From assembly GCF_022846255.1 (NCBI RefSeq), contig NZ_AP025682.1: DNA of 64,000 nt; one strand, given 5' to 3'. How positions within the stretch are numbered: the first letter of the stretch is position 1; each line of letters starts with the position of its first letter. A program made the position numbers and the translations under genes. This DNA is from Escherichia coli (lineage in GTDB: Bacteria; Pseudomonadota; Gammaproteobacteria; Enterobacterales; Enterobacteriaceae). The notes below the pieces were generated by a model. It was not told the DNA's origin. It made no database searches and was given only the letters and a program-made list of their open reading frames with translations. Positions 17,218-17,469 of this stretch are shown piece by piece.

Positions 17218-17469
17218 TGCGGTCATCCAGTTTTTTAGAATATTCGCCACCACAGGAGCGAAAGGTGCCAGATAACCGTCAACGAGGGTGAGTAATTCGT
17301 CGATAAGCGCTTGCAGCAGGTCGTCATCCTCAAGCCCCTCTGAAGGGGCAATGCCATTAGCCCACAGAAGGCTGTCGGACAGCTGCTTACGTTTTTCAAT
17401 TAATGCCCGATTATTACGTTCATTATTGCCAGGGTTGAGACGCCAGTATTCAAGGCTAAATGGCCCGAC
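17218..17469 (-). pseudogene. Protein-like reading frame with no usable start codon (possible gene remnant) between smrB and yfcO
   Basis: 84 sense codons bounded by stops; hand translation VGPFSLEYWRLNPGNNERNNRALIEKRKQLSDSLLWANGIAPSEGLEDDDLLQALIDELLTLVDGYLAPFAPVVANILKNWMTA; the only ATG/GTG codons are in the last 12 codons. Same frame as smrB, separated by TGA, five codons, TGA. Confidence 0.2.

What the first reader, a model, noticed from the sequence alone, without database searches (positions are those of the whole stretch)
17218..17469. Start-less, protein-like 84-codon frame between smrB and yfcO, in frame with smrB beyond two UGA codons
On the minus strand the smrB stop (TGA, 17488-17490) is followed by five sense codons, a second TGA (17470-17472), then 84 stop-free codons in the same frame. 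The hand translation looks like a folded protein segment (acidic and helical, LEDDDLLQALIDELLTLVDGYLAPF), not like intergenic DNA. The only ATG/GTG codons are in the last 12 codons, so it cannot be an independent gene as it stands. Three readings are possible: (a) the 3' remnant of a gene truncated when the yfc fimbrial operon was inserted or rearranged; (b) a former C-terminal extension of SmrB cut off by nonsense mutations; (c) chance. A random 84-codon open frame at this GC content has a probability of roughly (61/64)^84, about 0.02, per frame. This is the least explained stretch in the window.
Basis: seen in the sequence. Interest (0 to 1): 0.55.

Follow-up and report, generated by a model that had tools for sequence, protein, structure and literature searches.

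The report
Dead stub of Septu ptuB
The start-less open frame after smrB is the leftover last third of ptuB, the nuclease gene of a known two-gene anti-phage system (Septu) that other E. coli strains carry intact at this spot; it is a decaying pseudogene fragment and an ordinary finding.

Summary
On the minus strand the smrB stop is followed by 5 codons, a second TGA, then 84 stop-free codons. Openness alone is weak evidence: 19% of shuffled spacers give as long a frame.

The frame is real because of homology. Codons 11-84 (window 17439-17218) are 93% identical to residues 146-219 of PtuB, the HNH nuclease of a Septu defence cassette (ptuA+ptuB). That cassette sits intact between smrB and yfcO in 184 of 5,426 complete E. 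coli genomes. It is the experimentally characterised 'Septu EcB88', which cleaves tRNA-Tyr.

474 genomes, including this window's type, keep only this stub, all with the same junction. ptuA and the catalytic two-thirds of ptuB (H75, N91) are gone.

The stub evolves neutrally:
- 2 of 12 sampled alleles are frameshifted.
- Variable sites fall 5/7/5 by codon position, against 9/2/46 in adjacent smrB.
- Nonsynonymous:synonymous is 12:5, against 3:54 in smrB.

Being in frame with smrB is coincidence, and SmrB is 183 aa in every locus examined. Reading (a) is right in essence (a 3' gene remnant) but wrong on cause. Readings (b) and (c) are rejected. The 48 nt between the smrB stop and the breakpoint have no identifiable source.

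The parts
17488..18039 (-). smrB (endonuclease SmrB, 183 aa), intact. Its stop codon is at 17488-17490.
   Evidence: ORF listing. RefSeq annotation of the near-identical locus L003. Strong third-position bias in its last 120 codons across 12 genomes.
17440..17487 (-). 48-nt junction segment of unknown origin. It contains the second in-frame TGA (17470-17472) and codons 1-10 of the reported frame.
   Evidence: No similarity to the smrB-ptuA spacer, the cassette or the 'empty-site' spacers. It occurs once each in exactly the 474 stub-bearing E. coli genomes and nowhere else in them. A pattern scan of the genome-contig collection found no match.
17215..17439 (-). ptuB 3' stub: codons 146-219 of the Septu HNH nuclease gene plus its TGA stop (17215-17217). 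It lacks a start codon and the HNH catalytic residues.
   Evidence: tblastn: PtuB 146-219, 93.2% identity, E=1.9e-40. PADLOC PtuB profile positions 139-212 of 213, E=1.6e-22. The DNA breakpoint at 17439/17440 is defined by alignment to intact loci L001 and L002.
17186..17201 (.). GC-rich hairpin (GGGGCC-AGAT-GGCCCC) just after the ptuB stop, between the convergent ptuB stub and yfcO. It is probably a shared terminator (inferred).
   Evidence: Fold of 17165-17225: -27 kcal/mol, z=-2.7. The same hairpin follows the 198-bp-deleted ptuB of L001. The consensus terminator scan did not flag it because it has no T-run.
16307..17164 (+). yfcO-family fimbrial adhesin gene (StfH/YfcO), convergent with the stub. 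It is context, not part of the remnant.
   Evidence: ORF listing. RefSeq annotation of L003, where the called gene is 843 nt, so the annotated start corresponds to about 16322.

Best explanation
The 84-codon frame is a non-functional pseudogene fragment. An ancestor of this strain carried a two-gene Septu anti-phage cassette between smrB and the yfc fimbrial operon. ptuA encodes an ABC-type ATPase and ptuB an HNH nuclease. [quoted passage not shown] A single rearrangement removed ptuA and codons 1-145 of ptuB, and left 48 nt of unidentified sequence at the junction. What survives is the last 74 codons of ptuB with its stop codon and the downstream hairpin. By homology to retron Ec78 PtuB, this part corresponds by position to the C-terminal domain that docks onto PtuA. 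The stub has no start codon, no catalytic residues and no partner ATPase, and it drifts neutrally. It stays open, and lies in frame with smrB, by chance: it is young and short. Shown here: the homology, the breakpoint, the population distribution and the neutral substitution pattern. Inferred: a single origin of the deletion, the docking role of the retained domain, and that the stub is now simply untranslated smrB 3' sequence ending at the old ptuB/yfcO hairpin.
For: The intact ptuA (452 aa) and ptuB (219 aa, overlapping by 17 nt) lie between smrB and yfcO in L002. L001 holds the same cassette with a 198-bp deletion. PADLOC scores for L002: PtuA E=1.6e-168 and PtuB E=1.1e-94, both full length. 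The window frame matches only the last third: PADLOC profile positions 139-212 of 213 and PtuB residues 146-219 by tblastn at 93% identity. No PtuA is encoded anywhere in the window. The breakpoint is sharp at 17439/17440. The cloned, functionally tested 'Septu EcB88' fragment begins in the smrB 3' end with the same smrB-ptuA junction. Its essential residues, PtuA K43 and D316 and PtuB H75 and N91, are present at the same positions in L002. All of them lie upstream of residue 146. Survey of 5,426 complete E. coli genomes: 658 have cassette DNA, one chromosomal place each. Of these, 184 hold at least 80% of the cassette. The remaining 474 hold the stub only; every sampled stub row has the same left limit, and the same 48 nt occur once in each of 474 genomes. 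For neutrality, 12 stub alleles were compared. L008 has a 1-bp deletion and L009 a 2-bp insertion. Variable sites fall 5/7/5 by codon position, 12 nonsynonymous and 5 synonymous. In the same genomes the last 120 codons of smrB give 9/2/46 and 3:54, Fisher p=1e-7. RefSeq annotates nothing under the stub in most genomes.
Against: The 48 nt at the junction cannot be derived from any sequenced version of the locus, so the event was not a simple deletion within an L001/L002-like ancestor. The neutrality test rests on 12 alleles picked by a 'spread' listing rather than all 474, and on 17 variable sites. Some polymorphisms, such as A/D at codon 31, also occur in the L001 and L002 ptuB copies and may predate the truncation. 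In at least one strain (L007) the stub has a TTG start and RefSeq calls a 62-aa hypothetical protein, so translation somewhere is not excluded. Expression was not measured.
Confidence: 0.95

Rival explanations
1. The stub DNA is kept for a non-coding reason. It carries the hairpin and 3' flank that end smrB transcription and shield it from the convergent yfc operon. Only deletions that spared this end of the cassette would then have survived. This is compatible with the main explanation and concerns only why the 3' end remains.
For: The hairpin after the ptuB stop is stable and is the same in the L001 cassette locus and the stub loci. A cyanobacterial stub (L028) likewise keeps about 130 nt of the cassette's 3' flank at 89% DNA identity.
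Against: The hairpin has no T-run and was not flagged by the terminator scan. There is no Rfam match. K-12-like and E2348/69-like strains manage with unrelated 69-121-nt spacers. A terminator need would not explain keeping 222 nt of coding sequence.
Confidence: 0.15
2. The retained PtuB C-terminal domain is made as a small protein, from alternative starts or by frameshifting, and acts for example as a decoy that binds the PtuA C-terminal extension.
For: The PtuB C-terminal domain contacts the PtuA C-terminal extensions in retron Ec78 PtuAB. One E. coli allele has a TTG start and an annotated 62-aa ORF. C-terminal-only PtuB ORFs recur in distant taxa and metagenomes.
Against: This window has no ATG, GTG or TTG start before the last 12 codons. 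Two of 12 alleles are frameshifted, and substitutions show no codon-position bias. No ptuA is encoded in the window for it to act on. The scan patterns and the CTD query can only detect C-terminal pieces of distant homologues. Many of the short ORFs start at the first available start codon after a disruption (M118, V145/L146/L148), which looks like a gene-calling artefact.
Confidence: 0.02
3. The frame is, or was, a C-terminal extension of SmrB reached by readthrough of two UGA codons.
For: The frame is in phase with smrB. In one allele (L013) the second TGA is CGA.
Against: The sequence is PtuB, not SmrB. SmrB is 183 aa with the same C-terminus in cassette-bearing, stub-bearing and empty loci. 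Being in phase has a prior of 1 in 3. Frameshifted alleles exist. Double UGA readthrough would be extremely inefficient (established knowledge, not tested).
Confidence: 0.01
4. The open frame is a chance feature of intergenic DNA.
For: 19% of shuffled spacers contain an open frame as long.
Against: E=1.6e-22 to the PtuB profile and E=1.9e-40 to an intact PtuB. DNA identity to the L001 and L002 ptuB copies is 95-96%.
Confidence: 0.005

Closest known systems
Septu EcB88 (ptuA-ptuB of E. coli JBBDAGI-19-0041; Nat Commun 2026, PMC13096335)
   Same: Same chromosomal locus: the cloned fragment starts in the smrB 3' end with the same junction as L001 and L002. PtuA is 452 aa and PtuB 219 aa, with the tested catalytic residues at the same positions. 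The window frame is the 3' 74 codons of this gene at 93% amino-acid identity to the L002 allele.
   Different: The window has no ptuA, no ptuB codons 1-145, no HNH motif and no start codon. It cannot provide the defence against T5-like and T-even phages described for the intact system.
Septu of E. coli ATCC 25922 (PtuAB, PDB 8EE4/8EE7) and retron Ec78/Eco7 and Ec83 PtuAB effectors
   Same: Same architecture of an ABC-type ATPase plus an HNH nuclease. The locus PtuA hits retron Ec83 ATPase (E=1.7e-62), retron I-A PtuA and 8EE4 PtuA (E=2e-32). A PtuB C-terminal domain docks on PtuA C-terminal extensions in Ec78.
   Different: This is a different subfamily. PtuB finds no solved structure by sequence. 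NCBIfam retron-Ec78 PtuA and PtuB scores are below their cut-offs, 352 against 500 and 93 against 150. There is no room for a reverse transcriptase or ncRNA between smrB and ptuA, which are 85 nt apart.
Other decayed copies of the same cassette family
   Same: L001 and L017 carry a 198-bp deletion across the ptuA-3'/ptuB-5' junction. Arthrospira L026 has a ptuB riddled with stops. Synechococcales L028 and Oligella L027 keep only C-terminal stubs without ptuA. Metagenomic P0025 fuses the PtuA N-terminus to the PtuB C-terminal domain.
   Different: These are independent events with different junctions, spread over residues about 110-181. No shared mechanism was demonstrated.

Membership tests
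Septu PtuB (HNH nuclease subunit) | Sequence match to a PtuB profile or to an intact PtuB | tested here: met
   PDLC00344 E=1.6e-22, but only profile positions 139-212 of 213. tblastn to L002 PtuB residues 146-219, 93% identity, E=1.9e-40.
Septu PtuB (HNH nuclease subunit) | HNH catalytic motif (H75 and N91 in the EcB88 numbering, shown to be essential) | tested here: not met
   Homology starts at residue 146. H75 and N91 are present in L002 but lie in the part missing from the window.
Septu PtuB (HNH nuclease subunit) | Complete ORF with a start codon | tested here: not met
   There is no ATG, GTG or TTG before the last 12 codons, and the frame is bounded upstream by TGA.
Septu system (ptuA + ptuB operon) | Adjacent ptuA ATPase gene | tested here: not met
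   Only 48 nt separate the smrB stop from the stub. tblastn with PtuA finds nothing in the 64-kb window (best E=0.73). ptuA is present in the cassette loci L001, L002 and L017.
Septu system (ptuA + ptuB operon) | Purifying selection on the coding frame | tested here: not met
   Two of 12 alleles are frameshifted. Variable sites are 5/7/5 by codon position and N:S is 12:5, against 3:54 in the smrB control. The sample is small.
Retron type I-A (Ec78/Eco7) effector module | Reverse transcriptase and msr/msd ncRNA next to ptuAB, with scores above the NCBIfam equivalog cut-offs | tested here: not met
   For the L001 and L002 cassettes, the NF041760 and NF041761 scores are below their cut-offs. The cassette is flanked directly by smrB and yfcO. 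No Rfam hit in window 17050-17650.
C-terminally extended SmrB / programmed stop-codon readthrough | A longer SmrB, or conservation of the extension in SmrB orthologues | tested here: not met
   SmrB is annotated as 552 nt (183 aa) in all loci fetched that contain the whole gene, whatever follows it.
Independent small-protein gene | Start codon, and a frame conserved across strains | tested here: not met
   There is no start in the window and the frame is broken in L008 and L009. A TTG start exists in L007 only among the sampled stubs.

The most novel reading that the evidence does not exclude
C-terminal stubs of PtuB might not be pure debris. The same domain survives alone in E. coli (474 genomes), a cyanobacterium, Oligella and many metagenomic ORFs. 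It could be retained or expressed in some lineages as a PtuA-binding decoy that modulates or neutralises Septu-type systems, or as a preferred end-point of cassette loss. My evidence argues against this for the window's allele (no start codon, frameshifted relatives, neutral substitutions, no ptuA). It does not exclude it for other lineages.
Probability: 0.03. Interest if true: 0.5.

Novelty: already known. Interest (0 to 1): 0.12.

Why it matters
This matters mainly as housekeeping. It explains an unannotated 'protein-like' stretch as a defence-gene fossil. RefSeq annotates nothing under the stub in the genomes listed. It also shows that the smrB-yfcO spacer is a variable site in E. coli, seen in four states:
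- Empty: no cassette DNA found in about 88% of complete genomes at megablast sensitivity; the three such loci examined have short spacers.
- An intact or near-intact Septu EcB88-type cassette, about 3.4%.
- A cassette with a 198-bp internal deletion, counted within that 3.4%.
- A 3' stub, 8.7%.

The stub is a convenient marker of past Septu carriage. The stub-bearing genomes listed include ATCC 11775, NU14 and APEC O1. It is also a small example of how defence systems are lost. It does not reveal a new gene, a SmrB extension or a recoding event.

Tried and rejected
1. SmrB extension or readthrough. Rejected: the sequence is PtuB, and SmrB length is invariant.

2. Chance ORF. Rejected by homology, although openness alone is unremarkable.

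3. Source of the 48-nt junction segment. All searches came up empty:
- Local alignment to the cassette on both strands and to three 'empty-site' spacers scored no better than shuffles.
- blastn 'distant' against 5,426 E. coli genomes found only the 474 stub loci.
- A degenerate 29-nt pattern scan of the genome-contig collection gave 0 hits.
- A GTG-initiated reading, 'VDESGHLALNTGV', faintly resembles a PtuA N-terminus (xLxLxNxG). This is too weak to claim and was not tested.

4. Structured RNA in the spacer. No Rfam match at E up to 1.

5. Mobile-element origin. There is no close copy on plasmids or phages, only relatives at 67-70% identity.

6. Presence in another genus. The only non-E. coli 100% hit, a 'Citrobacter sp.' MAG contig, is identical to E. 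coli L002 over 6,867 nt and is probably mis-binned.

7. A recurrent breakpoint hotspot near PtuB residues 145-150. This was suggested by L028, P0009 and P0025. On inspection, junctions spread over residues about 110-181. Many apparent starts are first-available start codons, and detection is biased towards C-terminal pieces. Not supported.

8. Pfam on PtuB. No hit even at E up to 10, which may explain why RefSeq sometimes labels it 'hypothetical protein'.

9. Hochhauser et al. 2023 (PMC10121019). The main text does not mention smrB, yfcN or yfcO.

Full report
OBSERVATION

The minus-strand translation of window 17490-17215 reads '*ILKGG*VGPFSLEYWRLNPGNNERNNRALIEKRKQLSDSLLWANGIAPSEGLEDDDLLQALIDELLTLVDGYLAPFAPVVANILKNWMTA*'.
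- the smrB stop at 17488-17490
- five sense codons
- a second TGA at 17470-17472
- 84 sense codons at 17469-17218
- a stop at 17215-17217

No ATG-, GTG- or TTG-initiated ORF of 30 aa or more exists in this frame.

The per-frame probability of 0.018 is arithmetically right. The relevant question is how often a 323-nt spacer shows such a frame in any of six frames. That happens in 18.7% of 20,000 shuffles. Openness alone is therefore not evidence of anything.

WHAT IT IS

A megablast of the spacer against 5,426 complete E. coli genomes showed that most strains share only the smrB 3' end with this window. 473 genomes share the whole spacer. A few match from window position 17439 downwards under a gene annotated 'HNH endonuclease family protein' or 'hypothetical protein'.

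In those strains (L001 = PK12, L002 = CUVET19-970) two genes lie between smrB and the yfcO-family adhesin gene: an 'AAA family ATPase' and the HNH protein.

Profile searches identify them as follows:
- PADLOC identifies Septu PtuA (E=1.6e-168, full length) and PtuB (E=1.1e-94, full length).
- Pfam sees AAA_21, AAA_23 and AAA_15 in PtuA, and nothing in PtuB.
- NCBIfam's retron-Ec78 PtuA and PtuB models score below their cut-offs.
- There is no room for a reverse transcriptase, so this is a stand-alone Septu system and not a retron.

The window's 84-aa frame hits the same PtuB profile with E=1.6e-22. Only its residues 11-83 match, against profile positions 139-212 of 213. tblastn of the L002 PtuB against the window aligns residues 146-219 to 17439-17218 at 93% identity, E=1.9e-40. 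It finds no PtuA anywhere in the 64 kb.

At the DNA level the stub differs from the L002 and L001 ptuB copies at 9 and 11 of 222 positions respectively. Similarity stops abruptly at 17439/17440.

The ptuB stop codon is retained in all copies. The GC-rich hairpin after it is the same in L001 and in the stub loci.

THE INTACT SYSTEM IS ALREADY CHARACTERISED

A 2026 paper (PMC13096335) studies 'Septu EcB88' from E. coli JBBDAGI-19-0041. Its main results are these:
- The system defends against T5-like and T-even phages.
- It requires PtuA K43 and D316 and PtuB H75 and N91.

L002 has exactly these residues at these positions. The supplementary alignment gives a 452-aa PtuA and a 219-aa PtuB with the same termini.

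The cloned DNA in Supplementary Data 8 begins in the smrB 3' end. It carries the same smrB-ptuA junction as L001 and L002. The window therefore holds the fossil of that very system.

All catalytic residues lie upstream of residue 146, so the stub could not be a nuclease even if translated. In retron Ec78 PtuAB the PtuB C-terminal domain contacts the C-terminal extensions of PtuA. By position, the stub corresponds to that docking domain. This is an inference and was not tested.

POPULATION PICTURE

The cassette query matches 658 of 5,426 genomes, always once and always on the chromosome.
- 184 genomes hold at least 80% of the cassette.
- The rest hold only query positions 1863-2096, with the same left limit in every sampled row.

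The 48 nt between the smrB stop and the breakpoint occur once in each of 474 genomes and nowhere else in E. coli. Since 184 + 474 = 658, every genome is accounted for.

Twelve stub alleles taken across the identity range all share the same junction. This argues for a single ancestral event.

K-12-like, E2348/69 and other strains have unrelated 69-121-nt spacers with no trace of the cassette.

IS THE STUB UNDER SELECTION?

Among the 12 alleles, L008 has a 1-bp deletion and L009 a 2-bp insertion inside the frame. A metagenomic allele (P0004) carries a further frameshift.

| Region (same 12 genomes) | Variable sites by codon position 1/2/3 | Nonsynonymous : synonymous |
|---|---|---|
| ptuB stub, 74 codons | 5 / 7 / 5 | 12: 5 |
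| smrB, last 120 codons | 9 / 2 / 46 | 3: 54 |

Fisher's exact test on this contrast gives p=1e-7. This is the signature of neutral drift.

There are two caveats. The sample is 12 alleles chosen by a 'spread' listing. Some polymorphisms also occur in the L001 and L002 ptuB copies.

RefSeq annotates nothing under the stub in most genomes. In one strain (L007) a synonymous TTA-to-TTG difference provides a start, and a 62-aa 'hypothetical protein' is called.

(a) A 3' remnant of a gene: correct. The cause is not insertion or rearrangement of the yfc operon. The yfc operon coexists with the intact cassette, and its side of the junction is undisturbed. The loss is on the smrB side.

(b) A former SmrB extension: rejected. 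SmrB is 183 aa in all locus states, and the sequence is PtuB. Being in phase with smrB has a one-in-three prior.

(c) Chance: rejected by homology.

WHAT REMAINS UNEXPLAINED

The 48-nt junction segment (17440-17487) matches nothing:
- not the 85-nt smrB-ptuA spacer of cassette-bearing strains
- not the cassette on either strand
- not the empty-site spacers
- nothing else in E. coli
- nothing in the genome-contig collection by pattern scan

The event was therefore not a simple deletion within an L001/L002-like ancestor. Either the ancestral cassette had a different left end, or filler DNA was captured.

SIDE OBSERVATIONS ON CASSETTE DECAY

- L001 and L017 carry a 198-bp deletion. It removes the PtuA C-terminus and the PtuB start, and is flanked by a 10-nt imperfect direct repeat, TGC(G/A)ACAGTG.
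- A scan of the genome-contig collection with PtuB found full-length homologues in Cobetia and cyanobacteria at 45-61% identity. The five whose flanks were checked (L019, L020, L021, L023, L026) have a Walker-A ATPase ORF directly upstream, truncated in the decayed Arthrospira copy.
- The same scan found two more C-terminal stubs without ptuA. L028, in a Synechococcales genome, starts directly after the stop of a SpoIID-like gene and is 89% identical in DNA to an intact cyanobacterial copy, including 130 nt of 3' flank. L027 is in Oligella.
- A search of 1.84 billion representative proteins with the C-terminal domain found only 48 clusters, and 34 of them are short. They include a PtuA-N-terminus::PtuB-C-terminus fusion (P0025) and internal deletions (P0009, P0047).
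- I asked whether breakpoints cluster near residues 145-150. They spread over about 110-181. Many apparent starts are simply the first available start codon, and the search could only detect C-terminal pieces. I do not claim a hotspot.

VERDICT

The feature is real and fully explained. It is an unannotated, neutrally decaying 3' stub of ptuB from a known and experimentally characterised Septu cassette, shared by about 9% of complete E. coli genomes. It is not a new gene, not a recoding event and not a SmrB extension. Interest is low.

Noticed in passing
window 17440-17487: 48 nt between the smrB stop and the ptuB breakpoint have no detectable source. They occur only in the 474 stub-bearing E. 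coli genomes and match nothing in the cassette, the other spacer types or the genome-contig collection. They contain an SD-like AAAGGTGG followed by ATG and GTG.
   Followed up: partly
L001 5600-5610 and L017 (same variant); corresponds to L002 5405-5602: A second decay state of the cassette: a 198-bp deletion removes the last ~54 codons of ptuA and the first 12 of ptuB. It is flanked by a 10-nt imperfect direct repeat, TGC(G/A)ACAGTG, which suggests slippage or microhomology-mediated deletion. RefSeq still annotates both truncated ORFs as genes.
   Followed up: partly
L007 2537-2725 (E. coli O170:H18 CFIAFB20120266): The same stub is annotated by RefSeq as a 62-aa 'hypothetical protein' (WP_225915872.1). 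This allele has TTG where the window has TTA. It is a likely annotation artefact on a pseudogene fragment.
   Followed up: partly
L013 (E. coli EC444), position equivalent to window 17470-17472: In this allele the second in-frame TGA is CGA, so only the smrB stop itself separates SmrB from the stub frame.
   Followed up: no
L018 (contig DXKH01000145.1, MAG labelled Citrobacter sp. HRGM_Genome_0066): The contig is 100% identical over 6,867 nt to the E. coli smrB-ptuAB-yfc locus of L002. It is probably an E. coli contig mis-binned into a Citrobacter MAG.
   Followed up: partly
L028 2405-2617 (Synechococcales MAG) and L027 263-553 (Oligella ureolytica DSM 18253): Independent C-terminal stubs of ptuB with no ptuA nearby. 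The cyanobacterial one starts directly after, and in frame with, the stop codon of a SpoIID-like gene, and keeps 130 nt of the cassette's 3' flank. This parallels the E. coli case.
   Followed up: partly
L026 2569-4625 (Arthrospira sp. PCC 9108): A decayed Septu cassette: ptuA is truncated to 336 aa and ptuB is full of stop codons.
   Followed up: no
P0025, P0047, P0009 (metagenomic proteins): In-frame deletion products of the cassette. P0025 joins PtuA residues 1-61, including Walker A, to the PtuB C-terminal domain. P0047 and P0009 are internal ptuB deletions that remove part of the HNH region.
   Followed up: no
window 17488-17850 (smrB 3' part) compared with L003, L007-L016: smrB is more diverse among stub-bearing genomes (57 variable sites in 360 nt, almost all synonymous) than the adjacent stub (17 in 222 nt). 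This suggests recombination has shuffled flanking alleles around a younger stub. The yfcO-family adhesin proteins also differ between these genomes.
   Followed up: no
L004 4074-4142 and L005 4074-4194 (E2348/69 and a K-12-sized genome): The 'empty' smrB-yfcO spacers contain palindromic sequences that look like REP elements, for example GCCTGATAAGACGC...GCGTCGCATCAGGC. The identification is from memory of the REP consensus and was not tested.
   Followed up: no
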